The notes beneath the pieces were generated by a model that had not been told where the DNA came from, did not search any database, and worked only from the letters and a program-made list of their open reading frames with translations. The translations under genes and the position numbers were made by a program. A DNA stretch of 57,875 nucleotides, taken from contig JAJSAI010000014.1 in the NCBI GenBank assembly GCA_024274695.1, positions 1 to 57,875 of the forward strand, written 5' to 3'. Source of the DNA: an archaeon (GTDB taxonomy: Archaea > B1Sed10-29 > JAJSAI01). Positions 24,318 through 50,718 of the stretch are shown one piece after another (the stretch's first letter is position 1; each line of letters starts with the position of its first letter).

Positions 24318-24569
24318 TTATTTTTCTTTTTTCTTCCCGTGCAGGAACAGTCCTCCGAACAAGAACGTTTTCCAGTCAAAGCCTTCCTTCGCTTCCTCTC
24401 CTTCTTTTATTTTTTTCCTGAGACCGGGGCGGACTATGTTTTCTGGACTCATGAGCTCTTCTTTCCGTGTGGTGAGCATTGGAAGAAGTCCCAGTTCTTC
24501 TGGTGTTGGAACATGGTCCTTTGGGGGCATTGACTGTATGAGCACGTGCTTCTTCTTTTTCTTGCTCAC
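24318..24569 (-). CDS. Small Lys-rich protein, last gene of the tiny-protein array
   Basis: 83 aa, MSKKKKKHVLIQSMPP...FDWKTFLFGGLFLHGKKKEK. ATGA-type 4-nt overlap with the upstream gene. Confidence 0.5.
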   Translation of the reverse strand: MSKKKKKHVLIQSMPPKDHVPTPEELGLLPMLTTRKEELMSPENIVRPGLRKKIKEGEEAKEGFDWKTFLFGGLFLHGKKKEK

Positions 24570-24913
24570 TTTTTATCCTCCTCAAGCGCTTTCCTGACCA
24601 CGTTGACCCCTGCGCTTATGACTCCGGTGACCGCGCTCACAACATCATCCGCCCAGTCCTTGTCAGGACCGCTCTTTTCCTTGTACGAGAGTTCTATCTT
24701 GTCAGGTATCCTGTAAGGCGCTCCTCTTTTCGATTCTATCACTATCGGCTCCAGTTCTTCGTACCCCTTGCTTTTTTTCCCAGAGGCCTTTTTCTCTGGG
24801 AGTAGAGCGTAAACCCCGCACGCGAAGAGCGCGAACAACCCGAGCTTTTCGTATCCTGAAGACGCTAGCACGTACCAGAAGAAAAGCCCCATCAGGAACG
24901 CCCAGAGTCTCAC
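24566..24913 (-). CDS. Small 2-TM membrane protein, paralog 1 of 3
   Basis: 115 aa. TM hairpin, then LLPEKKASGKKSKG, then EPIVIESKRGAPYRIPDKIELSYKEK, then an amphipathic tail. Same architecture as the next two genes. Confidence 0.6.
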   Translation of the reverse strand: MRLWAFLMGLFFWYVLASSGYEKLGLFALFACGVYALLPEKKASGKKSKGYEELEPIVIESKRGAPYRIPDKIELSYKEKSGPDKDWADDVVSAVTGVISAGVNVVRKALEEDKK

Positions 24914-24931
24914 GGTCTTCCCACCATCCTT

Positions 24932-25276
24932 TTACTCGAACAGCCAGTTGAAGAACTTAACGAGCCCCTTGCCTATGGCTCCTATCCCTTTGGGGATGTT
25001 GCTGACGCCCCTGTAGGGCCCGTAGTCGCTTTTCTTGTACGTTATCTTGAGCTTCGGGGGGTACAAGTAGGGGGGTTCTCCCTCGTCCTCGTAAATGACA
25101 GGGTGAAGGATAACTTCTTCTTCCTCTTTTTTCTTTCCTCCCGCTTTCTTCTTCTCCGGCCAGACTGCTCCTGCCACGAGCAGCAGTACTCCTGCCCAGA
25201 ACAGTATCCCGTACCCTGGAAGGTACAGGGCAGTCAGGCAAAATACTATTCCAAGAGCAATTGCCCCAGTTCTCAT
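24932..25276 (-). CDS. Small 2-TM membrane protein, paralog 2 of 3
   Basis: Start at MRTGAIALGIVF (ATGA overlap with the upstream stop). ...VWPEKKKAGGKKKEEEE...HPVIYEDEGEPPYLYPPKLKITYKK... The ORF-track start at 25351 is an overlap artefact. Confidence 0.6.
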   Translation of the reverse strand: MRTGAIALGIVFCLTALYLPGYGILFWAGVLLLVAGAVWPEKKKAGGKKKEEEEVILHPVIYEDEGEPPYLYPPKLKITYKKSDYGPYRGVSNIPKGIGAIGKGLVKFFNWLFE

Positions 25277-25608
25277 GATAACAGCCAGTCCACAAACCTT
25301 TTGGTCAGGTTTCCTACAAGATTTCCAGTTGTTTTGCCCGCCTCCTTCCATCTGGTCGGAGGCTTTCCGGGCTCTGTTATTGTTATTTCTTCAGGGTAAA
25401 TGGACTCTGGTCCTTCGTACTTTCTTTTTACGATTATGGGCTGCACTTTCACCCTGGCCCCAGACCCTTTAGATTTTTTGGCAGGCTCTCTTGACACGAG
25501 CACCAGGATGGCTGCTGCTATTACTGCCGGGACGAGCACGCTCTCAACGTAGATGCCTGCGAGCACGAGCACCATGGCAAGGGCGAGCGTGCTTGCTCTC
25601 ATGTTCAT
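25273..25608 (-). CDS. Small 2-TM membrane protein, paralog 3 of 3
   Basis: 111 aa. TM hairpin, then SREPAKKSKGSG, then QPIIVKRKYEGPESIYPEEITITEPGK, then an amphipathic tail. ATGA overlap with the upstream gene. Confidence 0.6.
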   Translation of the reverse strand: MNMRASTLALAMVLVLAGIYVESVLVPAVIAAAILVLVSREPAKKSKGSGARVKVQPIIVKRKYEGPESIYPEEITITEPGKPPTRWKEAGKTTGNLVGNLTKRFVDWLLS

Positions 25609-25895
25609 CCTCCCAGGAGCCTCATGAGCTCAGGGGAGTAGTACTCTCCCCCTCCTTTCTCGCTCTTGGCCGCGCCGTACAATATTATTCCGGCTAGTAT
25701 TCCCAGGAAGATCCACCAGTACTTGGAGTACCCGAAGTAGACCATCGCGAGCACTAGCACTCCTATGACCGTTATTGGAACGCTTCTGGCGAGCACGATC
25801 AGGACAATGAACGTCAGGTAAAACAGGGTTTCCAGCCCCTGCTGTAGCGCGAGGAAGGACACGAGCAACAGTATTATCAGGCTCATGGGGTCCAT
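25605..25895 (-). CDS. Small 3-TM membrane protein, hypothetical
   Basis: 96 aa, almost entirely hydrophobic, with the tail AAKSEKGGGEYYSPELMRLLGG. Confidence 0.55.
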   Translation of the reverse strand: MDPMSLIILLLVSFLALQQGLETLFYLTFIVLIVLARSVPITVIGVLVLAMVYFGYSKYWWIFLGILAGIILYGAAKSEKGGGEYYSPELMRLLGG

Positions 25896-25904
25896 GATAT
25901 CATC

Positions 25905-26129
25905 TCACTTGAACGCTTCTCCGAACTTTTCAAGGAAAGGGTATCCGAAGAAGAATATCAGGATTATTATCACGAGCTCGGGGTGAGAGTAGAAGGTGAG
26001 GTATCCTACTATAGCTGCGAGAATGATCCCCAAGGCCTTTGATTTTGTCAGGTCAGTCCCCCACTTTACTAGGTACACGAAGAATATGAGCGTGAAAGCC
26101 AGCCTCAGGTCAGTCCAAAGGTCCGCCAT
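25905..26129 (-). CDS. Small 2-TM membrane protein, hypothetical
   Basis: 74 aa. On the minus strand it is preceded by a TATA-like CCTTTTTATACC and GGAGG elements within 26130-26198. Confidence 0.55.
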   Translation of the reverse strand: MADLWTDLRLAFTLIFFVYLVKWGTDLTKSKALGIILAAIVGYLTFYSHPELVIIILIFFFGYPFLEKFGEAFK

Positions 26130-26198: not shown

Positions 26199-27002
26199 CT
26201 AGATTATTCTCTTGAAGTCCTCCCATTTCCTGCCGACCTCTTTTTCCACGACTGGCTTCAGGTTTTTCCACACCCTAAGGAATGCCTTTTTCCTTCTTTC
26301 TAGTTCTTGCTTGCTCAGCTCCTTCACTATCATCATTTCCCTCAGATTCTTTTCAAACCCTCTTGGTTTGTATTCCAGTCTTCTCGCGCACCATAACCTC
26401 CAAGGGTCCGCGGGCACGTGGGTTTTGTTCAGCGCGAAAAGCGTTTGAAGGAGCATGTCAATCCCGTAACAAAAGCAATGGTGTGCTGCCAGAATATCTC
26501 CTCTGCGCACCCATTTTTCAGGCACATTAACGCAGAAGTAGTGGCTTTGCTCGAGGCCTTCCATCAAAAGCCATTTCCTCTCTTTTTCGGAGAGCACTGT
26601 CTTCTTTTTTATGAGCCGTTCGATCTTTTTCTGGGGATCGTATAATATCCTGTGCTGGGAGTACGCCCATTTCCTTTCAGGGTCCCAGCGTTCTTTCAGT
26701 GCTTTCTCGTACTCTACTATAGTCCAGTCTATTTTTACTTCTCTTACCCCGTATTTTCTGGAGTCTGGCTCGCTTAGGGGAACCCATACCTCTCCTTCTC
26801 TAGCGAGCCCGATCCGGGCGCCCTTGCTGACGAAGATCGTCATGTCAATGTCGGAGAACTTGTCGGCATAACCCCTCCCAAGACTACCCAGGCAAACTAT
26901 TCCCAGGACTCCCTTTTTCTTTTTCAGTCTCTCCGCGTACTCGCGCGCTACTTTTTCGTGCAGTTCTATTATGTTCTTGCCCCTGAGTCCCTGGGTCTTC
27001 AT
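26199..27002 (-). CDS. Pol-beta-superfamily nucleotidyltransferase, KNTase-like (NTase domain plus helical C-domain)
   Basis: The GS-x9-13-DxD signature LGSLGRGYADKFSDIDMTIFV, followed by a helical domain of about 150 aa. 267 aa. Confidence 0.7.
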   Translation of the reverse strand: MKTQGLRGKNIIELHEKVAREYAERLKKKKGVLGIVCLGSLGRGYADKFSDIDMTIFVSKGARIGLAREGEVWVPLSEPDSRKYGVREVKIDWTIVEYEKALKERWDPERKWAYSQHRILYDPQKKIERLIKKKTVLSEKERKWLLMEGLEQSHYFCVNVPEKWVRRGDILAAHHCFCYGIDMLLQTLFALNKTHVPADPWRLWCARRLEYKPRGFEKNLREMMIVKELSKQELERRKKAFLRVWKNLKPVVEKEVGRKWEDFKRII

Positions 27003-27015
27003 GATCGCCCTGTCT

Positions 27016-27369
27016 TCAGAATTTCTTGAACCGGGGGCTTGCCCAGAAGCCCTGCAGTCCGAAGATTATCATTCCCGAGAGCATGTAGGCCATGATGATG
27101 TAGGTGGTCCACACTCCTGCTGTTACCGGCAGGAGCCTTATACCAAAAATGTAAAAGAGGATCGCTGTTATGAGGTAGGTGGTGAGCCTGGTTCCTATCA
27201 CCATTCTCACGAAACTGTAGATCATGACCAGGATGTAGAACTGGAAGAGTATCCTGAATATGGGGATTGTTAGGATGGCGACGGTCATTCCCCCGATTAT
27301 CACCAGGAAGATGAGGGCCAGGATTATGAACGGGAGTATGAAAAAGCCCCTGCTTTTTTCCAGGATCAT
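27016..27369 (-). CDS. Polytopic (about 4 TM) small membrane protein, hypothetical
   Basis: 117 aa. 4-nt overlap with the upstream gene. Confidence 0.55.
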   Translation of the reverse strand: MILEKSRGFFILPFIILALIFLVIIGGMTVAILTIPIFRILFQFYILVMIYSFVRMVIGTRLTTYLITAILFYIFGIRLLPVTAGVWTTYIIMAYMLSGMIIFGLQGFWASPRFKKF

Positions 27370-27749
27370 CTTAGCAACGCCCTCCTCCTGCTCGCCGCTG
27401 ACTTGGCCGTGTCAGGAGGCAGGTCCCCTCCTCCTGCGCTGGCCATCGGTCCCGCGATAGACAGGTCGTACAATACCATGGTGAACCCAAAGGCTATGGC
27501 GAAGTACACTATCATCAGGGGTCCGAACAAGTGCCAGTACTGGAAGAGCATCAGGTACCCTAGTATGAGCACTAACGCGGTGATTATCGGGCCTCCTTCG
27601 AACCTGCTCCTGACGAAGGAGATCACGAACAAGAGCACGATTATCTTGAACCCGAACCACATCAAGTCCCAGTCGCTCTTCACTCCGGCCAGTGTCAAGA
27701 ACCTGTCCAGTATCCCCAGTACAGCCAGGACCGTCACGTTACTGATCAT
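27366..27749 (-). CDS. Polytopic (about 4 TM) small membrane protein, hypothetical
   Basis: 127 aa with an Arg-rich C-terminus (AASRRRALLR). Confidence 0.55.
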   Translation of the reverse strand: MISNVTVLAVLGILDRFLTLAGVKSDWDLMWFGFKIIVLLFVISFVRSRFEGGPIITALVLILGYLMLFQYWHLFGPLMIVYFAIAFGFTMVLYDLSIAGPMASAGGGDLPPDTAKSAASRRRALLR

Positions 27750-27797: not shown

Positions 27798-28766
27798 TCA
27801 TGTGGAAGATTTTACCAGAGAGCCGCTCTCGTCACAATAGTACGTGGACGTGGTTTTGCCCAGTTCAGTGTCAAGAGCGGTTAGCGTTACCTTGTCCTTC
27901 CAGCCTGTTATCTTGAACTCCTCTCCTCCATGCTTTTTGAAGAAGGCTTCCATCTCATACCATACTATATCATGGTGCTCGGGTTTAGGCACGTACACTC
28001 CGCTCTCGTCTGTGACCCACGTGAAGCCAGCGAACTTTTTTACCGCGTGGGCGGTCACCTTAAGCTCTGACAGGCCATTCGGTCCGCTGGGACAGTGTTT
28101 CCCTTCAAGCCCTCCTCCGAGCTCTTCCCTTATTCCCTCCGCCCATTCGGCCCACGCCCTGACTGGATCCGGAGTGCAGACCGTAATATCGTTCTCTGGT
28201 AGTACGCCTATCTTCTCGTACCCGTCAGGAGTCGGTATCTTCATCCAAACGTCTTTCCTTATGTCGTCGAACTGGCTGGAGTCTAGGGTGATGCACACTC
28301 GTCCGTCAGGGTGTTCCTCCTTGAAGAGGTCCTTTGAAACGCTGTGAATAGCATTGCTTATCTCCGTGTCATCAGGGGTTTCCGGCTCGCTCCCCTTGAA
28401 CACGAACGTCTTCCGCGTGGCGTCCACTGCGTTCACGACCGCTTCTGATGTCATCAGGCTAATCTCTTTTGAAACCCGCGCCTCCAGGGCGCCGAGTATG
28501 TCACTCTTTCCTTCCAGAGGGCTCTCCTCTATCTCCATTACTCGGGCCTTGACCGCGTTCTGTGTTTCCGCCTCCACGTTCGCCTTGACCACCTTGATGT
28601 TAATGTAGTCAGTTGAGGTTATCGAGCTTCCGGCCAGCGCTCTGGACGTCCGGAGGTCATTTTCTGCCATCATGCTGGCCGCGAGAATAGCCAGGATCAC
28701 CATGGTGGTGCCAACCAAAGGGGTGAATAAAGAAAAGCCCCTGTTCCTTTTCCGTGCGAAGGACAT
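27798..28766 (-). CDS. Class-III-signal (type IV pilin-like) secreted protein, 322 aa
   Basis: The N-terminus MSFARKRNRG|FSLFTPLVGTTMVILAILAASMM has a basic leader, a Gly, then a hydrophobic helix. Its ATG overlaps the giant gene's stop (TAATG). Confidence 0.65.
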   Translation of the reverse strand: MSFARKRNRGFSLFTPLVGTTMVILAILAASMMAENDLRTSRALAGSSITSTDYINIKVVKANVEAETQNAVKARVMEIEESPLEGKSDILGALEARVSKEISLMTSEAVVNAVDATRKTFVFKGSEPETPDDTEISNAIHSVSKDLFKEEHPDGRVCITLDSSQFDDIRKDVWMKIPTPDGYEKIGVLPENDITVCTPDPVRAWAEWAEGIREELGGGLEGKHCPSGPNGLSELKVTAHAVKKFAGFTWVTDESGVYVPKPEHHDIVWYEMEAFFKKHGGEEFKITGWKDKVTLTALDTELGKTTSTYYCDESGSLVKSST

Positions 28767-31700
28767 TAGTCTTCACTCTCTGACTGAGCGCTTACATACT
28801 CCTGGTAATGCTCGTAGTCAGCATTAGGCCCTTTTGTCACGCACCAACCCTCTTTAGTTGCAAGACCCCCTTCACAGTACAAGCATGAGCCTTTAGAGTT
28901 TTGCGCCAGGCATGTCCAGCTACAATAGCCGTTTGCCTTGTTCACGCACAGGGCTTCATCTGGACACTTAAGAGTTACTTTCTCAGTATCGCACAGCTTC
29001 CAGTTGGATAACCCGTGGCAGATGACCTTGTATCCGCAGTTTTCTCCAGATCCCGATTCTGAAGGGCCCTTCTTTTCCGCACCAGTCACAGTATAATAAC
29101 TACCCCATGGAGATATTGTGTAGGTTATGGTCCCCCCTGAATCTTCAGAACCCATGATCACGTTTACTCTCAGGTTTCCGAGGCCAATGGGTAGAGATAT
29201 AGTGGTACCATCTGAGGGGAAGGAGCCTCCCTTGATCTTTAGGTGAATGTACGGAACAAACCCTTTCGGGCTGAACTTTAGAGTTTCGGTGGAGGACCAG
29301 ATTGTTTTGGTTTCTACACCTACTGTGATCTCAGTGCCCTCTGCTTGCAAGGGAATAATATCTATCTCATCTGCGAACACGTTGAGTGGAACATAACAAT
29401 CTAGTGCAATATGCTTTTTATCCTCGCCAGTGTATCTCATGTTACCGCAAAAGGCAGCGCACTTTCCGTAGAATACTCTTTTATCATTCTCTCCAGCAGG
29501 ACTGGGAGCATCTTTTACTACAAGGTTCTTGTTGGAGATCTTGATCAGTTTTCTTCCTGCAGTCATACCATTTATTGTGTCAAGGGTGTTCTGTTGAATG
29601 CCTTTCATTGTGGTAGGGGTGGATGGGATCTCGCATGCTTGGATTCCAGGGGCTGATGAGAGATACAGTGCTATCGTCTTATGTTCGCTGGTCGTGGTAT
29701 AGTACAAAACTTTCGCAAGCGTCTTATAGTCTCCTTCCTTGAATTCCATTATCACCTTCCCGAGGTCGTTGTCCGCAACGGTGGTTATGCTGTTGTCCTG
29801 GCCGCTGCCGAGCCGTTCGCTCAGCAGGCTGGATATCTTACTTTCCTTGCCTTGGGGTATTGACAGGTACACGTGGTTTGCTGTCTCCCAGTATACCGCA
29901 GTGTCTTCTGGCAGGGTCCAGCCAGCCTTCTCGCTGACAGCGGCCTTGAAGTTCAGTATCTCCGAGTACTCTCCAACCTGTTCTGGGGTGAAGTCTGACG
30001 GTCTCCCGATAATAATGTACGGCCAGGAGACTTCCTCAGGAGAGCTCCTGTAGACTACTCTCACCTGGTCTTCTCCGACTTCTTCCCCTTCCTCCACAAC
30101 ATCCTTGCCGGTTTTCTCGTGGATTATGTTCCTTATCTGGGCCTTCTCGTCTTCTGACAGGCTTGTTCCCAGCAAGTTGAGCACTTCGTAGTCTGTTCTG
30201 GAGGTTATCCACTTCCCGTCACGTATTTCCAGAACCTCATTTCCTTTGGAGAAGCGGATTATGTTATCAATGAACTCTTTCACGCTGTCCAGCGTTGGCC
30301 CGACAATATGCAGGTAGTTGTTCTTGTCAAGGTACGCGAGCCCTGCCGCCGGGAACCTGTTCTCGAGCTCGGGCACGTTCTCCCAGAGGTCCTGGCACGC
30401 CTGCTGTGTTTCGTCGAAGCATGTTTCTATTATCAGGTTGTGAGTGTACTCCTCGTCTCCCAGGACGCTCCTGGAGTAGGATACGCTGTAGCCTTCTTTT
30501 TCTCCAACGCCCCACAGAGCGTTCATGAGCTTGTGGACCTCTTCCTCTATTGACTTCCCTGTCGTTATCACCACCCGGGTCTGGTATACGGACGGCCGCT
30601 TCTCCGCAATGCTGCTGGCGTCCGCAGGTATGAACGCGAGGAAGTTCTCAAGCTTTTCCTTCGGATTCATGTCCGAGAGTTTTCCTGTCTCGTAGTACCT
30701 TAGTTTTTTAGTGGTCCCTTCCGCGGTCTGGTAGTTCGTGGTCTTCACGGTCCCGTATCCTATCTCAGGCCAGAAGTCTGTGAACACTTCGTCGTCTAAT
30801 CCTAATGTGTTCACCGCGATGTACATTTCGTCTTTGTTGAGTTTGTAGTACACGCTCCTGAACGCCTGGTTCGGTGTTTTGGCTCCCGTGAGTATCTGGG
30901 CGAGGGTCGCGAAAGCGTCAGGGTCAAAAGTTTCCCCTTTCTTCAGGGTCTTTGAGAAGTCTGCTGAGATAACTTCAACTCCTCCCGCGGGGGCTGCTGC
31001 TTCTTCTTGTACTGTGGCCTTGTACTCTATGGGGACTTTCTTGGTGATCCCGTTCTTTTCTGCAGTGAACTCTCCTTTCACGTCAATGTTCGTGTTTGTT
31101 GACGGGAACGGCGCGTACAATGTTATGCTCGCGCTGAACGTTATCTGGGACTCGTCTGACTCTACCTTTACGTTCTCCGCGCTGCATCTCCACGCTCCGG
31201 ACGCGAGGCAGTCCGCGGTTCCCTCGTCAGAGGACACTTCCGCTTTGAGCACGCTGGCTCCTGACACGCTCACGCCATCGCACCTGTTGTTGAGGATGAT
31301 GCTGACGTCGTTCTTTTGGCTTATTATCAGGGTATTGTCTTCAGAGTCCAGCCGGTCTGGGTAGCAGGCTTTGATCTTCATTGGCACGGTCACTGGCTTG
31401 TCAAAGTAGGGTTGTCCCGCGATCCTCTCGTCAGACTCTATAATCATTTGAGCGTTCTGGTCCTGGTCTAAGAGTTCCTTCCAGGGGAAGTCCCTTCTTT
31501 CGTTAGATAGCAGGCACAGCCCCAGGTCCAGTTTTATCCCGTTTTCCGAGTCTGTTATCCCTCCCTCCACGCTCTTGTCCAGGGTGCAGACGGTTTCTCC
31601 TGCCTGGGTGATTTCAATTCTCTTGATGTACTTGGATGTTAGGATTGTGTTCGTGTTGAGGTCCTTGAGCGGCACTGTCACTTCTGGAGTGAACTCGTCA

Positions 31701-41813: not shown

Positions 41814-41829
41814 CACCGGGACAGAAACC

Positions 41830-41837
41830 TTTTAAAA
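41830..41837 (+). promoter_or_regulatory. Internal TATA box TTTTAAAA ahead of pilin gene 41869
   Basis: About 35 nt upstream of the start, in the only sizeable gap of the pilin cluster. Confidence 0.35.
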
Positions 41838-41868
41838 CCACACGCGCCTTTCTCTCTTCGGGTGATGC

Positions 41869-42467: not shown

Positions 42468-42481
42468 TCCTCTGAAAAACC

Positions 42482-44081: not shown

Positions 44082-44088
44082 TCACAGG

Positions 44089-44598: not shown

Positions 44599-47500
44599 TC
44601 CTCTCTTCTTCTCGCGTACTCCCTGGCCATGGCAAGAGAGACTACTATCAGTGCCACGAACACGAGTCCAGCCGTTCCAGGCGGGATGCTCGGCAGGGCT
44701 AGGAACGGCTGCTCTTGCCTGGTCCCCCTCTTCTCAGGAGGCTTGGCGCTTGGCGCTCCCCACGGCGGCTTGCCCGGCTTCATGAACGCGGCCCCGTTGG
44801 CTCCCTGGCTCACGAACTGCGGGTTGAGCGGGAAGTAAAAGTCGTTCGTCAGACTCACTTTCCCGTCCTGGAAAGAGTAGCCTCCGTTAGGCCCGTTCAA
44901 GAGCATGAGCGGCAGCTTGTTTATTGGGTTGCCGTTAGCGTCGGTGATCACCAGCTGCGGGTTGCCCTGCGGGTCAGTGGTCATGACCGCATAGCCCTGG
45001 TTCCCGTTAGGCAGGACTATCTGGTATCCTGGCATGTCATTGTACGGGGTCTGGTTAACCCATCCCTGGACAGGATACTGGTCCGTGACAAGGTTCCCCT
45101 GGTCATCGTAGTACGAGTACGTGATGTTGGACTGTCCAGTATTAGGATCTGTCACGATCCCGAACATGTTGTTGTCGTCCCCGATGCCGTCCGTGATGCA
45201 CATCGTCTCGGCCTTGTCTTTCCACTGCCGTGCTTCTGGACTGTCCGGGCTCTTGAACTCCCACACGAACTTGAACCCTGGAGTGCCGTCAGGGAGCGTG
45301 CAGTTCTCTATCCTGGGAGCTCCTGCGAACGGCCCGTATTCACTGTCAAGACTGTGCTGCATTCCAGCCAGGTATCCTGTCAGGAACATGTGGTAGACTC
45401 CCGTGAAGTCGTATGCCTCGTCTCCCATTTCCTGTTTTACTCCCGGTCTTATGAATCCTCTGGTGTACACTATCGCTCCGTCGGATCCTAAGGCGAACCT
45501 GCAGAACTCGTCGCCCTTGCTGTCCTTTAGTATTATCGTTCCCTGCTTGTCGTTCTTGAACTCCAGGACGCCGTCCGGAACCGTTGCCACTCCTAAGAAC
45601 CTTGCCTTGCACTCTTTCGGAGGAGCTCCCTTGATGAACCTGAACTTGATCTCGTTCTCGGCAGTGGGCCAGATTATCGCGCGCTCGGTCTGCACGTAGT
45701 CCATGGCCCCCATGGCGTCCCGCAGTTGTTCCTTTACATAACCGTCGTCCTTCACGTTCTTGAGGGCGAGCATGTCGTCAGACATGAGCTTTTCTTTCAG
45801 GCAGTTCCCGTCCGGCGTGTCAGTCGTCTCTATTCCGTCAGGATACAGTTTGAGGATGGTGTCCGCCTGGTCCGCCTTCTTTATTTCTATTACTTTTGAG
45901 GCCATGTAAGCGTACCCGTTGTCCATGTCTATACCAAGGGACAGGAACAGCGGGTTCGGCTCTTCTAGTATTGGGTTGCCTTTCTCGTCAAGCAGGAAGT
46001 AGCCTCCTGCCATCATGCACTTGTACGCTCCGGTCCGCGGGTCCTGGTGGCAGAAGGATATCGGGCAGTCTGGGTCTAAAAGCCACCTGACGTTGGCCCT
46101 CTGGAAGTACGCGTCGTACACCCTGTCCGCGATCAGGTGCATTTCTCCTGGCGCTGTCACCACGTAATCGTGGAGCACCTGGGTCTGGACCTGGTTCGGG
46201 TCGGCCCAGCTCCTGATAATCTGGCCTGCTTCAGGGGACACTCCCTCCAGCCAGTTCACTACCGTGGAAATGGTCTGGCCCGCTTCTTTGGGCAGGTCCT
46301 TGAAGTCCTCTGCTATATCCTCTCCTTCCAGGACCCGCGCCAGGCTCGCTATCTCCACGTCTGTTTCCAGGCAGGTGCTCATGTCCTTTAACGCCTTCTC
46401 CTGGGCTTCTATGGCCTTCATTTCAATGTACGCGTTGGTAAGGTCCGCGACGAGGTCTATCCCCACTCCTACAGCAAAGCCAGCTGGTCCTGCCGCCGCG
46501 AACAGTTCTGGGAGGATGTTGGTGAACGTGGCAACACCCAAGGAGGCTGCCGCCGCCCACTTCCAGTACGTGATGTCCCCTTTCCTGTCGCCGAGCACCT
46601 TGGAGCACATCTGGTTCTCGTGCGAGAACGCGTACTTGACGTTCACCAGCGTTCCCTGCCTCATGTCCTGGCCTGTGAGCGTGGCGACCTGCATGAGCCT
46701 TCTTGCGGTGAAAGAGTATACTAACAGTTTTATGAAAAGCTCTCTCTGCGTGAAGCTGGGCACAGGGATGATGGCCGCGGGTATTGCCGCGTAGAATCCT
46801 CCTTCCAGCACCGCTTTTGAGAAAAGGTAAGTTGTTCCCGCGAAGGTCCCGAACGCGCTTTGGACCAGGTCAGGGGCTAAGGGCTTGTCCACCGCGCTCG
46901 CTATGTCCGCGTTCTTGGTGTACCAGTATATTCCCGTGTACATCCCGTCTTTCAGGTTGGTCCAGCCTGCCGGGTCCTCGTATATCGTGTAACCTGTCAC
47001 GTCATTATAGTCTGAGAAGAAGTAGAACTTTCCTGCCAGGGAAAGGATCATGTTCTTGTTGTTCACTTCAAGCTTCTGGTGGGGGTTGACCTGGTCAACT
47101 ATGTAAACGTGCTTCCCAAGACTCTTTCCCTTGGCAAGGGCCTGTGACGGGAAGTTAGGAGCGTCCGGAGTGTACTTCGTGCTCAGCATTCCCACAAGGC
47201 CTCCGACCAAGGAGAACCCTGCTTGTCTTGCCACGTTCTGGTTGATCCAGGTGGTGTGTATCTCTGTTTCCGCGTATACTGGAGCGCTGATGTTCTCCCT
47301 CAACTCCCTGCTCAGACTGATCTTTGTCACCTGTGATGGGAAGTACGGCTGTTGGAAGTACTCGTTGTACCTGCTCACGGCAATGTAAGAGAGGGTCATC
47401 CCAACATGGCTTAATCTTGTGAAAACTGTGAGGAATGAGATCACGCGCCCCCCGACCGCTGCGAAGATTACTTTTGCGGCGTCCCATTTCGGAACTCCCT

Positions 47501-49400
47501 TCAGGCTCCTGTACACGAGAAGGGGTCCTGCGGTCCCCGCAAGGTATCCTTCTGCGTTCTCAAGTCTTCTCATCTCGTCTTTGGCGTCCTGCAGGTTCTC
47601 TAGTTTTGACCCGTACTTGGCGTTGAAGGATTCCAGAGCGCTCTTGAATCCCTTTTTGGCCTTGCTGAGCTCGTTCATGTTCTCAGAATACGTTTTCAGC
47701 AGGGCCCTAACATCGCTCGGAGCATCTATCTCGTCCAGGTTCTTGACTATGACGTCCACTCCTGTGATTTTTCCTGAATCGTCCGTTATTATCCTGATAA
47801 TCTTTCTGTTCTCTAGTTCTTTAAGTTCGTCCAGGTGGCCTTCCAGGCTTTCCAGAGTCTTCTTAACGGCTCCTTCTTTTTTGGTAACCTCCTTTCCCGC
47901 GTCAAGCACTTTCTCCAGGGCCTCTTTTTTCTTTGAAACGTATCCTCCGATGGGGAAGGACCCTCTTCTGATCCCTCCGAGCACTGCTGATGTTATCCTG
48001 TCCCTGAGCGTGAGCGTGCCTAGATCATCTATGTTTATTGCTATCTTCTGCCCTTCAACTTCTTTTACTATCTGAAGCACACCGTTGTCTCCCTGGAGTA
48101 TCTTGTACCCGTCCCCGAGGTCAGTGTCCGCGGCGGCCTCAAACACTTTCCCTGTGCCCCTGTCGAGCACGTACGTTTTTCCCCCCTTGCTTACGCGCAC
48201 GAACCTTTCTTCAGCAGGCAGTCTCCGCGCGCCTTCCTGGAGGCTGTCCGCGATGTCTATCTGTGCCTCCAGCACTGCCTTGATGTTCTTGTTCCTGCCT
48301 GAAACCTCCCGGTACCAGTCTTTAAGATCATACCACCATCCGAGGGCCTTGCCTTTTATTCCCTTGCGCGCGGTTTTTTCACTGAGTTCTAGAGCCTCCT
48401 CGGCAGCATCGTCTCCTATTCCGGACGAGGGGTTGGCGAGCATTTCTGTTACCGCCGCAATAGAGTACACGGTGTCAAACTCGTTCCAGGCTGTGGCAAG
48501 CCAGCCTATGAACTGCATCAGGTGAACCGGCACGAGTATGTCCAGCTTGTCAGGCCCGAGAAGGTTTATTTCAATGTTGTTGCTCCTGATCCTGTTCGGG
48601 GGCTTGGACGCGTCCTCAAGGTCCCTTCCAACTACAGATGACACCTTGTTGGTCAGTTCCCTCACCACGAGCCTTTTCTCGTCCTCGCTTAGCACGGTCA
48701 CGTCCTTTTCCACATCATCAAGATCATACTCTTTTGAGACCTTGAGTATTGCGGACCTGACCCATGACCTCACCTTCTCGTCAGAATTGACAGCATCCCG
48801 GAACGCTTGCGTGTTATTGTTGTAAAGCGCGTTAACAAGGGACGTTATGATCGGCGCTCTCTCGGCAGTGTCAATAGTCCCGCTGAAGTCAATCCCTTTC
48901 CCGCAGTCCTCGTCCACGGTACAGTATATTGTTTCGTCTGTCCTGAGCGCGTACGAGACAAGCCCGTCAACTATAACGTTCTTCAGCTGGCACGCTTCCG
49001 CAGGGCTTTCCACCTGTTTTTTCTGCACGTTGTACAGCAGGAGCTTGCCTCTCTCGGTCATGATGAACTTGTCCTTCACTCTCTCTGCCCCGGGAACGTC
49101 AGAGAGGCCCTGTTCCTCCATTCTCTCCTGCTGCATTCCCAGGACAGGGTTCCCGAAAGCGTCCAGTTGGGGGAAGCTCGTGCGTATCTTTGTTTTCAGC
49201 CGCTGGTACTCTGAATAGTTTAGCTTGTCAATCCATACGTTTTCGCAGCCTCCCAGCCGGGCTCCTTCCTTAACGTCATTGTTCCTCCAGTCCCACACGG
49301 TGGCCATTTCAGAATCCTGGCAGCACTGGGTCAGAGGATAGAACGAGGGCATTATGAGCGTTACCGCGAGTAAAAACGTCAGGAGACCGCGTTTGTTCAT
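44595..49400 (-). CDS. Giant (1601 aa) secreted protein with an N-terminal signal peptide and a sortase-type C-terminal tripartite signal
   Basis: N-terminus MNKRGLLTFLLAVTLIMPSF. C-terminus ...LPSIPPGTAGLVFVALIVVSLAMAREYARRRED (motif, TM helix, Arg-rich tail). It has a central coiled coil, Gly/Ala-rich hydrophobic segments, and an N/G/Q/P-rich region before the tail. Confidence 0.85.
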   Translation of the reverse strand: MNKRGLLTFLLAVTLIMPSFYPLTQCCQDSEMATVWDWRNNDVKEGARLGGCENVWIDKLNYSEYQRLKTKIRTSFPQLDAFGNPVLGMQQERMEEQGLSDVPGAERVKDKFIMTERGKLLLYNVQKKQVESPAEACQLKNVIVDGLVSYALRTDETIYCTVDEDCGKGIDFSGTIDTAERAPIITSLVNALYNNNTQAFRDAVNSDEKVRSWVRSAILKVSKEYDLDDVEKDVTVLSEDEKRLVVRELTNKVSSVVGRDLEDASKPPNRIRSNNIEINLLGPDKLDILVPVHLMQFIGWLATAWNEFDTVYSIAAVTEMLANPSSGIGDDAAEEALELSEKTARKGIKGKALGWWYDLKDWYREVSGRNKNIKAVLEAQIDIADSLQEGARRLPAEERFVRVSKGGKTYVLDRGTGKVFEAAADTDLGDGYKILQGDNGVLQIVKEVEGQKIAINIDDLGTLTLRDRITSAVLGGIRRGSFPIGGYVSKKKEALEKVLDAGKEVTKKEGAVKKTLESLEGHLDELKELENRKIIRIITDDSGKITGVDVIVKNLDEIDAPSDVRALLKTYSENMNELSKAKKGFKSALESFNAKYGSKLENLQDAKDEMRRLENAEGYLAGTAGPLLVYRSLKGVPKWDAAKVIFAAVGGRVISFLTVFTRLSHVGMTLSYIAVSRYNEYFQQPYFPSQVTKISLSRELRENISAPVYAETEIHTTWINQNVARQAGFSLVGGLVGMLSTKYTPDAPNFPSQALAKGKSLGKHVYIVDQVNPHQKLEVNNKNMILSLAGKFYFFSDYNDVTGYTIYEDPAGWTNLKDGMYTGIYWYTKNADIASAVDKPLAPDLVQSAFGTFAGTTYLFSKAVLEGGFYAAIPAAIIPVPSFTQRELFIKLLVYSFTARRLMQVATLTGQDMRQGTLVNVKYAFSHENQMCSKVLGDRKGDITYWKWAAAASLGVATFTNILPELFAAAGPAGFAVGVGIDLVADLTNAYIEMKAIEAQEKALKDMSTCLETDVEIASLARVLEGEDIAEDFKDLPKEAGQTISTVVNWLEGVSPEAGQIIRSWADPNQVQTQVLHDYVVTAPGEMHLIADRVYDAYFQRANVRWLLDPDCPISFCHQDPRTGAYKCMMAGGYFLLDEKGNPILEEPNPLFLSLGIDMDNGYAYMASKVIEIKKADQADTILKLYPDGIETTDTPDGNCLKEKLMSDDMLALKNVKDDGYVKEQLRDAMGAMDYVQTERAIIWPTAENEIKFRFIKGAPPKECKARFLGVATVPDGVLEFKNDKQGTIILKDSKGDEFCRFALGSDGAIVYTRGFIRPGVKQEMGDEAYDFTGVYHMFLTGYLAGMQHSLDSEYGPFAGAPRIENCTLPDGTPGFKFVWEFKSPDSPEARQWKDKAETMCITDGIGDDNNMFGIVTDPNTGQSNITYSYYDDQGNLVTDQYPVQGWVNQTPYNDMPGYQIVLPNGNQGYAVMTTDPQGNPQLVITDANGNPINKLPLMLLNGPNGGYSFQDGKVSLTNDFYFPLNPQFVSQGANGAAFMKPGKPPWGAPSAKPPEKRGTRQEQPFLALPSIPPGTAGLVFVALIVVSLAMAREYARRRED

Positions 49401-50230
49401 TTTCTCCTCCTCCTTGATCTTGCTACAGCAAGGCCTATTATCACGGCCGCCGCGATTCCCACCACCACCGCGGCGGTGGTCTCAGGGTTTTCTGCCACGG
49501 CCGTTTCTACGGGGCCCTTCTCCTCTTTTTCCAGTTTGTAGAAGGACGCTGCTATCGCGAGCCCCTTCTTGTCCATTTCTCCGTCAAAGTAAATCTTCTC
49601 GCCTATTAGATCGTAGTAAACCGCGTACCCTTCTTCAGGACTGCCTTCAACCTGGAACCCTGAAAAATTGCCGAACTCTTTCGGGTCTATGAGAAGGAAT
49701 ACTGGGGTGCCCTTCTTTAGGGTGACGGGGACCTTTTCCAGGCTAACGTTCTTAGGATAGGCTACCACGAACCTTCTCACGCTGATGTTCGTGTCCTCGT
49801 CAAGGACTCCTGTGGCCATGCACACGTCAACAGCGTCCCCGCACGCCGTGCACTCCGCCTCGCACTTGGACAGCTTCTCGTAGTCGTCAAGGTAGTCCAG
49901 GCACCGGTAGACTGTTCTCGCGCACCCCGGGTCGCAGGTCGTGTTGGAGTAGCACACGATCCCGTTCGTTATGACCACTGGAACTTCTGTTACAGTGGCC
50001 GAGAGCCAGCAGACCTTCCTCCCGAGCTCGTCGGTGTCACAGTCCTTCGTGGCCTCCTCGAAGGCCGCGGGGTTGGTCCACCTCCCGTACTGGTCCACGG
50101 TCCAGTTTTCTCCTATCATAGACTCGGGAATACAGATCTTGCCGGCACTGCTTTCCCTGCACACCTGTGAGAGACCCTGTGCTAGCAGGATCAGGACAAG
50201 CACCAGCCAAAGCTTCCTTGACATTCTCAT
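49397..50230 (-). CDS. Cys-rich secreted protein (277 aa) with a sortase-type C-terminal signal
   Basis: Start at MRMSRKLWLVLVLILLAQG (ATGA overlap with the upstream stop). 16 Cys in the mature part. C-terminus ...ENPETTAAVVVGIAAAVIIGLAVARSRRRRK. ATGA overlap with the 1601-aa gene. Confidence 0.75.
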   Translation of the reverse strand: MRMSRKLWLVLVLILLAQGLSQVCRESSAGKICIPESMIGENWTVDQYGRWTNPAAFEEATKDCDTDELGRKVCWLSATVTEVPVVITNGIVCYSNTTCDPGCARTVYRCLDYLDDYEKLSKCEAECTACGDAVDVCMATGVLDEDTNISVRRFVVAYPKNVSLEKVPVTLKKGTPVFLLIDPKEFGNFSGFQVEGSPEEGYAVYYDLIGEKIYFDGEMDKKGLAIAASFYKLEKEEKGPVETAVAENPETTAAVVVGIAAAVIIGLAVARSRRRRK

Positions 50231-50718
50231 ACCCCCAGGTGCACTGCCAGCCAGAGCGCGCATGCTCCTGCCAGTAGTACTATAGTGTTGAACGTGATTA
50301 ATATTACGAACAGTTCCAGTTCCTCGGGCACTTTCATTATTCTCCGCATCCTCTCTCTAAAACTTTCAGCAGGCTTTTTCAGCACGAGCCCCAGCAGGAA
50401 TCCTGCGAGGACCGTCTGCCCAAGCTTGTCCGCGGCAACCCATCCTCCCTGGGCCGCTGGCACGAGGGCCAGGAATCCTGCGATCATAGCGCACGCTATG
50501 CCCAGGCTAGCAATGTAAGCAGACAGGCCCTCAGAGTTTTTCAGAAGGCTCCTCCTCGCTCTTACTGCCACGACAGAGAATGGCCATGCGACCAGCGTGA
50601 TGATCAGTGAGAGCAGCAGCAGGTCCAGAACATCCCATGCGAAGAAGGCGTTGAGGAGAGCGTAGGAGATCGCGAAAAAAGGGTTCACAGTGAACGTCTG
50701 CCAGAAGAAACTGTCCAT
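50227..50718 (-). CDS. Polytopic membrane protein (about 5 TM), first gene of the convergent operon
   Basis: 163 aa, hydrophobic throughout. No family recognised. Confidence 0.6.
   Translation of the reverse strand: MDSFFWQTFTVNPFFAISYALLNAFFAWDVLDLLLLSLIITLVAWPFSVVAVRARRSLLKNSEGLSAYIASLGIACAMIAGFLALVPAAQGGWVAADKLGQTVLAGFLLGLVLKKPAESFRERMRRIMKVPEELELFVILITFNTIVLLAGACALWLAVHLGV

What the first reader, a model, noticed from the sequence alone, without database searches (positions are those of the whole stretch)
24318..50718. 26-kb surface island combining a mini-archaeosortase, two giant proteins, a type IV pilus machine and an array of tiny membrane proteins: candidate undescribed adhesion or cell-contact system
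Between 24.3 and 50.7 kb nearly every gene encodes a membrane or secreted product, and none is housekeeping. A divergent node at 37051-37083 separates two operons. The minus-strand operon runs: archaeosortase-like gene, 2566-aa anchored giant, class-III-signal protein, two polytopic membrane proteins, NTase, six tiny membrane or basic proteins. The plus-strand operon runs: FlaI-like ATPase, FlaJ-like platform, seven pilin-like genes. The plus operon converges, with a 4-nt overlap at 44595-44598, on a third operon: membrane protein, Cys-rich secreted protein, 1601-aa secreted giant. Many junctions within these operons are ATGA or TAATG stop/start overlaps, which argues for co-translation. The last two proteins of the third operon carry sortase-type C-terminal signals that could be substrates of the sortase-like enzyme encoded about 8 kb away. 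To my knowledge, a single locus uniting pilus assembly, sortase-type anchoring and giant adhesin-like cargo has not been described in archaea. My inference is that it builds one adhesive or cell-cell contact apparatus.
Basis: partly seen in the sequence, partly recalled or inferred. Interest (0 to 1): 0.85.

Follow-up and report, generated by a model that had tools for sequence, protein, structure and literature searches.

The report
Pilus locus with its own archaeosortase
This is a real gene cluster, conserved in tiny (DPANN) archaea of the Micrarchaeota and Iainarchaeia groups, that joins a type IV pilus machine to a dedicated mini-archaeosortase and giant surface proteins; the pairing appears undescribed and is a good candidate for the unknown attachment apparatus of these cells.

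Summary
Window 24.3-50.7 kb is a block of membrane and secreted genes set in housekeeping DNA of a DPANN archaeon.

- **Enzyme:** The 179-aa gene is a genuine exosortase/archaeosortase-family enzyme. It passes TIGR04178, and Cys78, Arg120 and His140 are invariant in 85 relatives.
- **Co-localisation:** It lies within 8-10 kb of the FlaI/TadA-like ATPase in 41 of 50 assessable Micrarchaeota/Iainarchaeia loci. It is absent from all 47 loci of other DPANN lineages that carry the same ATPase-platform pair.
- **Candidate substrate:** The 1601-aa giant family ends, in 12 of 12 genomes, with [LV]P-x-x-P, a membrane helix and a basic tail. This matches no curated sorting-signal class.
- **Extra finds:** A conserved 47-aa mini-pilin at 42324-42467, three in-frame fusions of the sortase to class III signal proteins, and tandem arrays of the N-anchored giant family.
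- **Corrections:** The nucleotidyltransferase is an insertion. The 288-aa protein lacks the conserved motif. There are probably more than three transcription units. The giant family is multi-copy.

Best reading: one Epd/Tad-like pilus system whose dedicated archaeosortase processes the 1601-aa giant for surface display. Adhesion or host contact is inferred, not shown.

I found no prior description of this pairing. I rate it a new variant of known kinds, with interest about 0.62.

The parts
36511..37050 (-). Mini-archaeosortase (179 aa): new subfamily of the exosortase/archaeosortase family, with four predicted membrane helices and an outer beta-hairpin loop
   Evidence: TIGR04178 at 34.9 bits, above the cutoff of 23. 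All named Xrt/Art subfamily models score far below their cutoffs. C78, E83, N117, R120, H140 and F144 are invariant in 85 relatives. AF2 model has pLDDT 96.5. 308 clusters found in 1.84 billion representatives.
37084..39363 (+). Type IV filament assembly ATPase (759 aa, FlaI/TadA/PilB-like) with a long N-terminal extension
   Evidence: PF00437 at 66.6 bits. FlaI model 142.9 bits and TadA model 125.4 bits, both below their equivalog cutoffs. Walker A residues G457-S465, E484/D485 and H567 are invariant. More than 1000 homologs.
39341..41413 (+). Platform protein (690 aa, FlaJ/TadC/PilC-like, 8 predicted membrane helices)
   Evidence: Weak PF00482 match at 20.5 bits, below the 25.2 cutoff. It follows the ATPase in nearly all related loci, including other DPANN lineages.
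41415..42291 (+). Two paralogous Cys-rich minor pilins (132 and 140 aa; 41415-41813 and 41869-42291)
   Evidence: Class III signals RGQ and KGQ followed by a hydrophobic helix. The family is conserved in Micrarchaeota/Iainarchaeia loci.
42324..42467 (+). Mini-pilin (47-aa precursor, about 43 aa mature); candidate major filament subunit
   Evidence: Sequence MRRGQNWTPIYL...KPMF. Conserved at the same position in 16 or more distinct loci. No Pfam family matches.
42512..44598 (+). Four further minor pilin-like genes (204, 179, 142 and 169 aa)
   Evidence: Class III signals. All four families are syntenic across loci.
27798..28766 (-). Large class III signal protein (322 aa here, about 690 aa in Iainarchaeia); candidate pilus-associated adhesin or tip protein
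   Evidence: Conserved N-terminus [KR]G|F[SA][LV]FTP[LM][VI]G. Usually the gene next to the sortase. Fused in frame to the sortase in L010 and P0178.
28766..36466 (-). N-anchored giant (2566 aa): conserved 45-aa N-terminal module, one membrane helix, then Ig-like/prealbumin-like domains and a variable C-terminal part
   Evidence: CarboxypepD_reg at 59.4 bits. Homologs add Big_1, SpaA, MG3/MG4 and SdrD_B. N-terminal module aligned in A9. Multi-copy family, often in tandem arrays.
44595..49400 (-). Secreted giant (1601 aa), the probable dedicated archaeosortase substrate; no recognisable domains
   Evidence: Sec-type signal peptide. The family is conserved along its whole length. No Pfam or PDB sequence match.
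44598..44708 (-). C-terminal tripartite sorting signal of the 1601-aa giant: ALPSIPPG, a membrane helix, then REYARRRED
   Evidence: [LV]PxxP + membrane helix + basic tail in 12 of 12 genomes. The motif pattern hit only this family among 3,717 reading frames. Only sub-threshold hits to curated CTERM models.
27016..27749 (-). Two small polytopic membrane proteins (117 and 127 aa), lineage-specific accessories
   Evidence: 3 and 4 predicted membrane helices. Syntenic downstream of the giant in L002-L004, L019 and L039 only.
24318..26129 (-). Six tiny membrane or basic proteins. The 139 (probably 114), 111 and 115-aa proteins are paralogs.
   Evidence: Homologs of the 74, 96, 111 and 139-aa proteins occur only in the closer Micrarchaeota loci.
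49397..50718 (-). Cys-rich secreted protein (288 aa, C-terminal membrane helix and basic tail, no conserved motif) and a 163-aa membrane protein; variable accessories
   Evidence: No sequence homologs in related loci. Positional analogs of 199-216 aa occur in L002, L004 and L034.
26199..27002 (-). Nucleotidyltransferase (267 aa): an insertion, not part of the system
   Evidence: PF01909. Its neighbours are adjacent to each other in L002-L004 and L019.

Best explanation
The island is one conserved surface-structure system of Micrarchaeota and Iainarchaeia.

**Pilus module.** It is an Epd/Tad-like type IV pilus machine made of:
- a FlaI/TadA-like ATPase;
- a fused TadB/C-like platform protein;
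- a mini-pilin of about 43 aa, the candidate major subunit;
- six minor pilins;
- a large class III signal protein, possibly at the pilus tip.

**Added parts.** In this lineage the machine has acquired a dedicated mini-archaeosortase and giant surface proteins.

**Proposed mechanism.**
1. The 1601-aa giant is exported by Sec and held by its C-terminal helix.
2. The archaeosortase has Cys78 and His140 at the outer membrane face and Arg120 in the third helix. It cleaves at the [LV]PxxP motif that abuts the helix. By analogy with ArtA, it transfers the protein to a lipid or another acceptor.
3. The 2566-aa giant is held by its N-terminal helix and projects a stalk of Ig-like domains.
4. The pilus and the giants together form an adhesive or host-contact surface.

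**Shown versus inferred.** Shown: family memberships, conserved catalytic residues, the conserved sorting signal, synteny, and the fusions. Inferred: the cleavage, the acceptor, co-assembly with the pilus, and the adhesion or host-contact role.
For: - **Enzyme family.** TIGR04178 is passed. The Cys/Arg/His signature is invariant in 13 and in 85 relatives. The AF2 model is confident, pLDDT 96.5.
- **Topology.** The basic residues in the N-terminus, the 96-102 loop and the C-terminus place C78 and H140 at the outer face (sequence; inference).
- **Synteny from the ATPase side.** The sortase lies in 17 of 17 first-scan loci that have upstream DNA. Overall it lies in 41 of 50 assessable Micrarchaeota/Iainarchaeia loci and 0 of 47 other-DPANN loci.
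- **Synteny from the sortase side.** 10 of 11 loci hold the ATPase.
- **Core gene set.** Iterated profiles recover it across loci.
- **Sorting signal.** [LV]PxxP + membrane helix + basic tail in 12 of 12 genomes, and specific to this family among 3,717 frames. This fits Haft's criteria for a dedicated one-to-one system with enzyme and target in nearby genes (bioRxiv 10.1101/2023.06.07.544157).
- **Fusions.** The sortase is fused in frame to class III signal proteins in three records.
- **Pilus features.** Conserved mini-pilin. The giant family has Ig-like adhesin-type domains.
- **Vertical inheritance.** The chromosomal neighbours (flavin reductase, PAC2, the second pilus module) are shared with Iainarchaeia loci, and GC content matches the flanks.
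- **Evolutionary rate.** Against the closest relative, the ATPase is 86% identical, the mini-pilin about 83%, and the giants and the large class III protein 25-36%. This fits exposed, fast-evolving surface parts.
Against: - No expression, proteomic or imaging data exist for this organism.
- Nine assessable Micrarchaeota/Iainarchaeia ATPase loci lack the sortase within 8-10 kb (L032, L033, L036, L043, L052, L060, L061, L065, L066).
- The 1601-aa giant family was detected in only about a third of sortase-bearing loci, partly because the flanks are short.
- The sortase is co-directional and often fused with the large class III protein, not with the 1601-aa giant. The true partner could therefore be different.
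- No prepilin peptidase is encoded in the window.
- The platform protein's T2SSF match is below threshold.
- The giants have no diagnostic adhesin domain beyond Ig-like folds, and the 1601-aa giant is an orphan.
- It is not established that all Iainarchaeia are symbionts (own knowledge).
Confidence: 0.6

Rival explanations
1. **Secretion machine rather than pilus.** The mini-pilin and minor pilins form a short pseudopilus, as in type II secretion. It pushes the sortase-processed, lipid-modified 1601-aa giant, and perhaps other giants, through the S-layer to the cell surface.
For: There is a precedent for a C-terminal sorting enzyme feeding a type IV filament machine. In Vibrio cholerae, rhombosortase-processed GlyGly-CTERM proteins need the type II secretion system to reach the surface (PMC6219818; Haft 2023). 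The locus is dominated by minor-pilin-like genes, and the only small pilin is essentially a bare helix. Micrarchaeota have an S-layer that large proteins must cross (bioRxiv 10.1101/2021.04.28.441871).
Against: No archaeal type II secretion-like function is known (own knowledge). Clade 1 archaeal pilus loci also have five or more minor pilins yet make pili (PMC4858521). Thin pilus-like filaments were seen on a cultivated Micrarchaeon (PMC11329633). There is no evidence that the giant needs the ATPase.
Confidence: 0.17
2. **The sortase acts on the pilus proteins, not the 1601-aa giant.** It would work on, or together with, the large class III signal protein or the pilins. One version is ligation of a surface protein to a pilin, as Gram-positive pilus sortases do. 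Under this reading the 1601-aa giant is simply anchored by its membrane helix.
For: The sortase gene is usually immediately upstream of the large class III protein. It is fused in frame to such proteins in L010, P0178 and P0244. The sortase and the class III protein sit in one operon, while the 1601-aa giant sits in a convergent one. The mini-pilin has an invariant KPMF motif with a Lys that could act as a nucleophile (speculation).
Against: The pilins and the large class III protein have no C-terminal tripartite signal. Class III signals are cut at the cytoplasmic face, whereas the sortase's Cys and His are predicted at the outer face (inference). The 1601-aa giant is the only family with a conserved motif next to a C-terminal helix. 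The fusions may be read-through gene calls.
Confidence: 0.13
3. **Neighbours without functional coupling.** Surface genes cluster for shared regulation or by history. The pilus, the sortase system and the giants work separately.
For: The ATPase-platform pair exists without any sortase in Woese-, Pace-, Aenigm-, Nanohalo- and Undinarchaeota. Nine Micrarchaeota/Iainarchaeia loci lack the sortase. One locus, L028, has the sortase and a giant but no ATPase in 6.9 kb. The N-anchored giants often lie elsewhere.
Against: The sortase is adjacent or near in 82% of loci, over ATPase identities of 48-86%, in two classes. This holds despite rearrangements such as inserted tRNA synthetase or other genes. 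The fusions also argue against it. So does the divergent arrangement with a 33-nt gap, where the promoters must overlap.
Confidence: 0.1

Closest known systems
Archaeosortase A / PGF-CTERM system of Haloferax volcanii, and the exosortase / PEP-CTERM systems
   Same: Same enzyme superfamily (TIGR04178), same conserved Cys/Arg/His, a polytopic membrane enzyme, and a substrate with a motif, a membrane helix and a basic tail at its C-terminus with the motif abutting the helix (PMC6098224; Haft 2023).
   Different: The enzyme is half the size (179 aa, about 4 helices). It passes none of the ArtA-E, pacearchaeosortase or Xrt subfamily models. The motif is [LV]PxxP, not PGF, PEF, PIP, VPXXXP or PEP. 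It appears to be a one-to-one dedicated system. It is embedded in a type IV pilus locus and found in DPANN rather than Euryarchaeota. Its activity is untested.
Clade 1 (EppA-dependent, Epd) archaeal type IV pili of Methanococci and Thermococci, and the related bacterial Tad/Flp pili
   Same: ATPase plus TadB/C-like platform, five or more minor pilins, large class III signal proteins, extra membrane proteins, Gln at +1 of several pilins, and a very small major-pilin candidate like Flp (PMC4858521). Micrarchaeon Mia14 was reported to have a clade-1-type system (PMC5498576).
   Different: The platform is a single 690-aa fused protein. The large proteins lack DUF2341. No EppA or FlaK peptidase lies in the window. 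The Makarova survey mentions no exosortase or archaeosortase in any archaeal pilus neighbourhood. Clade assignment by phylogeny was not done here.
[quoted passage not shown]
   Same: A C-terminal sorting enzyme works together with a type IV filament superfamily machine to place a protein on the cell surface (PMC6219818).
   Different: The enzyme family is unrelated (a rhomboid serine protease). It is bacterial and involves an outer membrane. The genes are not clustered with the secretion system in that case. This is an analogy only.
Gram-positive sortase-assembled pili with tip adhesins
   Same: A transpeptidase with a Cys/His/Arg triad is encoded in the pilus locus next to its adhesin and pilin substrates, which carry C-terminal motif + helix + basic signals (own knowledge; Haft 2023).
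   Different: The enzyme fold is unrelated. The filament there is a covalent polymer with no ATPase or platform, whereas here the filament machinery is type IV. Covalent attachment to the pilus is pure speculation here.
Giant surface proteins of other DPANN, such as the SPEARE proteins of Nanohaloarchaeum antarcticus
   Same: Very large, fast-evolving surface proteins in ultrasmall archaea, thought to mediate host contact (own knowledge; bioRxiv 10.1101/2023.02.24.529834, listed).
   Different: No sequence relationship was detected. The giants here have a distinctive conserved 45-aa N-terminal module (2566-aa family) or a sortase signal (1601-aa family), and they are linked to a pilus locus.

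Membership tests
Exosortase/archaeosortase superfamily (TIGR04178 / PF09721) | Match to the family signature model above its curated cutoff | tested here: met
   TIGR04178 scores 34.9 bits against a cutoff of 23. Pfam PF09721 scores 25.2 against 25.7, just below. Homologs carry a precomputed PF09721 hit. NCBI names relatives 'archaeosortase/exosortase family protein'.
Exosortase/archaeosortase superfamily (TIGR04178 / PF09721) | Conserved catalytic Cys, Arg and His | tested here: met
   C78, R120 and H140 (plus E83, N117, F144) are invariant in 13 locus-derived sequences and in 85 database relatives.
Exosortase/archaeosortase superfamily (TIGR04178 / PF09721) | Polytopic membrane protein with the active site at the outer face | tested here: inconclusive
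   Helices are predicted and the AF2 model has pLDDT 96.5. The outward orientation rests only on the positive-inside rule. No solved exosortase fold exists in the PDB for comparison: best Foldseek E-value 1.5.
Exosortase/archaeosortase superfamily (TIGR04178 / PF09721) | Co-occurring target with a C-terminal motif, membrane helix and basic cluster | tested here: met
   The 1601-aa family carries [LV]PxxP + helix + basic tail in 12 of 12 genomes, encoded in the same locus. A whole-genome phyletic profile was not possible.
Exosortase/archaeosortase superfamily (TIGR04178 / PF09721) | Endopeptidase or transpeptidase activity on the signal | not testable with these tools
   Needs biochemistry or proteomics.
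Named archaeosortase/exosortase subfamilies (ArtA-E, pacearchaeosortase, XrtA-Y) | Score above the subfamily model's cutoff | tested here: not met
   Best scores are XrtM 30.4 against 125, XrtX 30.0 against 170, ArtD 21.1 against 125, and pacearchaeosortase 16.1 against 80.
Curated C-terminal sorting signals (PGF-, PEF-, PIP-, VPXXXP-, PEP-, VPEID-, Loki-, Heimdall-CTERM, LPXTG) | C-terminal peptide matches the signal model above its cutoff | tested here: not met
   Nine C-terminal peptides were scanned. Hits were scattered and sub-threshold: VPEID 15 against 33, PEP-CTERM 13.4 against 16. One peptide touched the LPXTG cutoff, 16.0 against 15.9.
Type IV filament superfamily (type IV pili, archaellum, Tad, type II secretion) | PilB/FlaI/TadA-type secretion ATPase | tested here: met
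   PF00437 at 66.6 bits. FlaI and TadA models give E-values of 1e-41 and 3e-36. Walker A, Walker B and His box are invariant.
Type IV filament superfamily (type IV pili, archaellum, Tad, type II secretion) | PilC/FlaJ/TadC-type polytopic platform protein | tested here: inconclusive
   PF00482 scores 20.5 bits, below the 25.2 cutoff. The protein has 8 predicted helices and invariably follows the ATPase. Homologs carry weak or faint T2SSF hits.
Type IV filament superfamily (type IV pili, archaellum, Tad, type II secretion) | Subunits with class III signal peptides | tested here: met
   Eight genes have [KR]G|[QFL] followed by a hydrophobic helix. This is pattern-based, and no pilin Pfam model matches.
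Type IV filament superfamily (type IV pili, archaellum, Tad, type II secretion) | Prepilin peptidase (family A24: PibD, FlaK or EppA) | tested here: not met
   No A24 hit among the 53 window ORFs scanned against Pfam. It may be encoded outside the window, as in Mia14 (PMC5498576).
Clade 1 (Epd-type) archaeal type IV pili | Large class III proteins with DUF2341, a dedicated EppA, and an ATPase in clade 1 of the Makarova tree | tested here: not met
   No DUF2341 hit in the 322-aa class III protein or in the giants, and no EppA in the window. ATPase phylogeny was not done. The resemblance rests on gene content only (PMC4858521).

The most novel reading that the evidence does not exclude
The archaeosortase is an integral part of the pilus machine. 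In one version it couples the 1601-aa giant covalently to a pilus component or to the envelope at the pilus base. In the other it hands the lipid-modified giant to the type IV filament machine for export through the S-layer. Either way, the result would be a hybrid 'sortase plus type IV filament' host-contact organelle specific to Micrarchaeota and Iainarchaeia. It is a candidate for the unidentified pili or envelope complex seen by cryo-ET in a cultivated Micrarchaeon.
Probability: 0.2. Interest if true: 0.85.

Novelty: new variant of a known kind. Interest (0 to 1): 0.62.

Why it matters
**An open question becomes testable.** How DPANN archaea attach to other cells and communicate with them is unresolved. 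Cryo-ET of a cultivated Micrarchaeon shows thin pilus-like filaments and a large envelope complex whose proteins are unknown (PMC11329633). This locus gives a concrete, conserved parts list of 11 or more genes to test: ATPase, platform, mini-pilin, minor pilins, class III tip candidate, sortase and two giant families.

**Extends the archaeosortase family.** It places the family in DPANN. It defines a new subfamily and a new C-terminal sorting signal that could be turned into annotation models.

**First genomic link of this kind.** It is the first genomic link I could find between an exosortase-type enzyme and a type IV filament system. This echoes, by convergence, two bacterial arrangements: sortase-built pili and the rhombosortase/type II secretion pathway.

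**A tractable filament subunit.** The mini-pilin of about 43 aa would be among the smallest type IV filament subunits known, and it is an easy target for structural work.

Tried and rejected
**Searches and predictions that gave nothing**
- Alignment-based locus search with 13 sortase sequences failed because no conserved stretch was found. A 5-sequence alignment worked.
- A word-indexed homolog search with the 1601-aa giant returned only the query itself. With the sortase it returned only 5 proteins.
- PDB sequence searches with both giants found nothing below E = 0.5.
- Pfam scans of six 1601-aa family members found nothing.
- AF2 on the giant's last 560 residues, from a single sequence, gave pLDDT 38 and was unusable.
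- Foldseek of the confident sortase model against the PDB found no meaningful match.
- Pfam has no family for the mini-pilin.
- NCBIfam sorting-signal models do not fit the C-termini.
- Haft et al. 2012 (PMC3256604) is not held in the library.
- The A_DKE co-culture paper does not mention pili or sortases.

**Ideas considered and rejected**
- *Mobile or recently transferred island.* GC content equals the flanks, no integrase is present, the tRNAs lie 3 kb away, and the neighbouring genes are shared with Iainarchaeia.
- *The sortase replaces the prepilin peptidase.* The active site is predicted at the outer face, and Micrarchaeota have a FlaK-like peptidase elsewhere.
- *The 53-aa ORF at 42314-42475 is a gene.* The conserved frame is the 47-aa mini-pilin.
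- *The nucleotidyltransferase is a system component.* It is an insertion.
- *A different sortase type accompanies the ATPase in other DPANN.* Neither the profile nor a signature pattern found one in 47 loci.

Full report
**1. What is in the window**

The window is a chromosomal segment of a DPANN archaeon. The flanks carry housekeeping genes: PEP synthase, family B DNA polymerase, Nre, TYW2/Trm5, HDAC, PAC2 and tRNAs. The closest public relatives are Micrarchaeota MAGs, with ATPase identity up to 86%. Next come Iainarchaeia (Diapherotrites) MAGs at 48-67%. GC content in the island (50-56%) equals that of the flanks.

The junctions are as described:
- ATGA, GTGA and TAATG overlaps within the gene strings;
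- a 33-nt divergent gap at 37051-37083;
- a 4-nt convergent overlap at 44595-44598.

TATA-like boxes (TTTATA or TTTAAA) lie about 30 nt upstream of the 74-aa, 127-aa, 2566-aa, 140-aa and 204-aa genes. This suggests more than three transcription units (inference).

**2. Identities of the genes**

*The sortase-like gene (36511-37050).* It passes the curated exosortase/archaeosortase signature TIGR04178, 34.9 bits against a cutoff of 23. It fails every named subfamily model: XrtM, XrtX, ArtD, pacearchaeosortase and the rest. In alignments of 13 neighbourhood-derived homologs and of 85 database relatives, Cys78, Glu83, Asn117, Arg120, His140 and Phe144 are invariant. Cys, Arg and His form the catalytic signature of this family (PMC6098224; Haft 2023).

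An exhaustive profile search of 1.84 billion representative proteins found 308 clusters at E <= 1e-3. Nearly all of the 150 best hits listed are 100-290 aa long. Those that carry names are annotated 'archaeosortase/exosortase family protein' from Micrarchaeota or unclassified archaea. AlphaFold2 gives a confident model: pLDDT 96.5, with long helices and a small beta-sheet loop. No solved structure resembles it.

Basic residues cluster in the N-terminus, in loop 96-102 and in the C-terminus. That places Cys78 and His140 at the outer face of the membrane, where C-terminal sorting signals would be cut (inference from the sequence).

*The pilus module.*
- 37084-39363 is a FlaI/TadA/PilB-type ATPase.
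- 39341-41413 is a protein with 8 predicted helices and a sub-threshold T2SSF match. It always follows the ATPase.
- Six genes of 132-204 aa, plus the 322-aa gene, begin with class III signals.
- A seventh pilin was mis-framed by simple ORF listing. The 47-aa ORF at 42324-42467 reads MRRGQNWTPIYLVIIIAIAVILLFTIVKPMFTQAGQYVQSTLPSVLF. It is conserved at the same position in at least 16 distinct genomes. It is the best candidate for the major filament subunit. Its size recalls Flp pilins and the small clade 1 pilins (PMC4858521). No Pfam family matches it.

*The giants.*
- The 2566-aa protein has three parts: a conserved, acidic 45-aa N-terminal module; one membrane helix; and a region of about 1,100-1,400 residues. 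Across homologs, that region matches CarboxypepD_reg, SpaA, Big_1, MG3/MG4 and SdrD_B domains. These are the Ig-like or prealbumin-like folds typical of fibrillar adhesins and S-layer-like proteins.
- The 1601-aa protein has a Sec signal peptide and no recognisable domain.

**3. Is the co-localisation more than chance?**

*(a) From the ATPase.* In the first scan, all 17 loci with upstream DNA carry the sortase gene, divergently adjacent or within 3 kb. A profile scan returned more than 591 relatives, of which the best 80 were kept. Adding six contigs reached by exact look-up gives this count:

| Locus set | ATPase identity to window | Sortase within 8-10 kb |
|---|---|---|
| Assessable Micrarchaeota/Iainarchaeia loci | 48-86% | 41 of 50 |
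| Woese-, Pace-, Aenigm-, Nanohalo-, Undinarchaeota and other Nanoarchaeota loci | 39-43%, full length, platform gene retained | 0 of 47 |

The second row was checked with both the profile and a signature pattern. A single-copy gene in a genome of about 1 Mb would fall in such a stretch about 2% of the time.

*(b) From the sortase.* Ten of 11 loci hold the ATPase.

*(c) From the N-terminal 60 residues of the giant.* There are 227 matches, and the top 77 are all from Micrarchaeota or Iainarchaeia. The sortase is within 10 kb in 24 of them and the ATPase in 21. Many of the rest are second to fifth copies in tandem arrays of giants. These arrays often include a homolog of the 322-aa class III protein, and they push the sortase beyond the fetched flank.

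Iterated profiles define a core set: sortase, ATPase, platform, mini-pilin, the six minor pilin families, the large class III protein, the N-anchored giant and the 1601-aa giant. The small membrane proteins at 24.3-27.7 kb are conserved only in the closer Micrarchaeota. The nucleotidyltransferase is an insertion. The 288-aa and 163-aa proteins have only positional analogs.

**4. The candidate substrate**

In all 12 genomes where the C-terminus of a 1601-aa family member is available, it ends with h-h-A-x-[LV]-P-x-x-P-[EAPTG], then a membrane helix, then a basic tail. One of them (L041) has a spacer between the motif and the helix.

A pattern for this signal hit 12 of the 3,717 stop-terminated frames of at least 100 aa in the related loci held at that point (L001-L116) and the window. 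All 12 hits belong to this family.

The signal matches no curated CTERM model above threshold. In all but L041 the motif abuts the helix, as it does for signals cut by membrane-embedded enzymes. Enzyme and target are encoded nearby, which is Haft's criterion for a dedicated one-to-one system.

The 288-aa protein has a helix and a basic tail but no conserved motif.

**5. An unexpected link to the class III proteins**

The gene next to the sortase is usually the homolog of the 322-aa class III protein. In three independent records the sortase is fused in frame to a class III signal protein:
- L010: ...AWYLRKRIIRRVRKALRMSKG|FSVFTP...
- P0178: 1102 aa, sortase followed by a protein like the 322-aa one.
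- P0244: 282 aa, sortase followed by a 179-aa-type pilin.

The topology of such a fusion is coherent. The sortase C-terminus is inside the cell, followed by a basic linker, followed by the pilin helix. These records may be true fusions or read-through gene calls. Either way they show very tight coupling.

**6. Most likely mechanism**

The system is an Epd/Tad-like pilus machine that in the Micrarchaeota/Iainarchaeia lineage gained a dedicated archaeosortase and giant surface proteins. The sortase most likely removes the C-terminal helix of the 1601-aa giant at the [LV]PxxP motif. By analogy with ArtA, it then attaches the protein to a lipid or another acceptor. The N-anchored giants and the large class III protein would provide variable, fast-evolving adhesive surfaces. 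They are only 25-36% identical to the closest relative, against 86% for the ATPase.

The family assignments, the conservation, the signal, the synteny and the fusions are shown. The cleavage, the acceptor, the physical association with the pilus and the adhesion or host-contact role are inferred.

The rivals are:
- a type II secretion-like export role for the filament machine, with rhombosortase and type II secretion as precedent (PMC6219818);
- the sortase acting on or with pilus proteins;
- mere co-location without functional coupling.

**7. Comparison with what is known**

Type IV pilus loci in Micrarchaeota have been noted (Mia14; PMC5498576). So have giant DPANN surface proteins and archaeosortases, including a Pacearchaeota subfamily in NCBIfam. 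The comprehensive survey of archaeal type IV pilus neighbourhoods mentions no exosortase or archaeosortase.

Full-text searches combining archaeosortase or exosortase with DPANN, Micrarchaeota, Diapherotrites, Iainarchaeota or pilin found nothing specific. The library is not complete, so absence of a description is not proof.

I therefore rate this a new variant of known kinds: a new archaeosortase subfamily, a new sorting signal and a new system architecture.

**8. Verdict**

Interest is 0.62. A specialist would find the sortase-pilus pairing and the mini-pilin noteworthy rather than astonishing. It gives a concrete handle on the open question of the DPANN contact apparatus. Thin filaments and an unidentified envelope complex were seen in the cultivated Micrarchaeon ARM-1 (PMC11329633).

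Noticed in passing
window 53905-57105 (-): A second type IV filament module: a T2SSF-like 314-aa protein, a 306-aa membrane ORF, and a 559-aa T2SSE ATPase whose N-terminus carries a 2x[4Fe-4S] ferredoxin domain. The same trio sits directly next to the first system in an Iainarchaeum MAG (L020). A redox-cluster domain on a pilus ATPase is unusual.
   Followed up: partly
window 42324-42467 (+): Conserved 47-aa mini-pilin, about 43 aa when mature, with an invariant WTPIY...KPMF core and no Pfam family. It is hidden by a longer spurious ORF in another frame (42314-42475).
   Followed up: yes
L010:3-923 (-); proteins P0178 and P0244: In-frame fusions of the mini-archaeosortase to class III signal proteins, of the 322-aa type or the 179-aa pilin type, in three independent metagenomic records.
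   Followed up: partly
L020 3205-7122; proteins P0053, P0061, P0111, P0116: The orthologous pilus ATPase of several Iainarchaeia is interrupted by an intein (Intein_splicing plus LAGLIDADG_3), giving ORFs of about 1,260-1,305 aa.
   Followed up: no
window 26199-27002 (-): A nucleotidyltransferase (NTP_transf_2 with a DUF4037-like C-terminal part) is inserted between two small membrane genes that are adjacent in relatives. It could be a minimal defence or toxin-antitoxin-type element.
   Followed up: partly
window 13048-13229 (-): An Rfam tRNA match 182 nt long, presumably an intron-containing archaeal tRNA. ARAGORN did not call it.
   Followed up: no
L130, L135/L157, L166, L034 (related loci): The N-anchored giant family forms tandem arrays of 2-5 genes of 6-8 kb each, often with a class III protein of the 322-aa type. 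This looks like a set of alternative surface cassettes.
   Followed up: partly
window 24566-25608 (-): The 115-aa, 139-aa (probably 114-aa) and 111-aa proteins are paralogs. Each has a two-helix hairpin, a Lys-rich linker and a conserved P-[IV]-[IV]...P-Y/E...P motif. Their function is unknown.
   Followed up: partly
window 22228-23703 (-): A 491-aa cytoplasmic protein with no Pfam match lies at the left edge of the island, next to a 178-aa coiled-coil protein. I did not examine whether they belong to the system.
   Followed up: no
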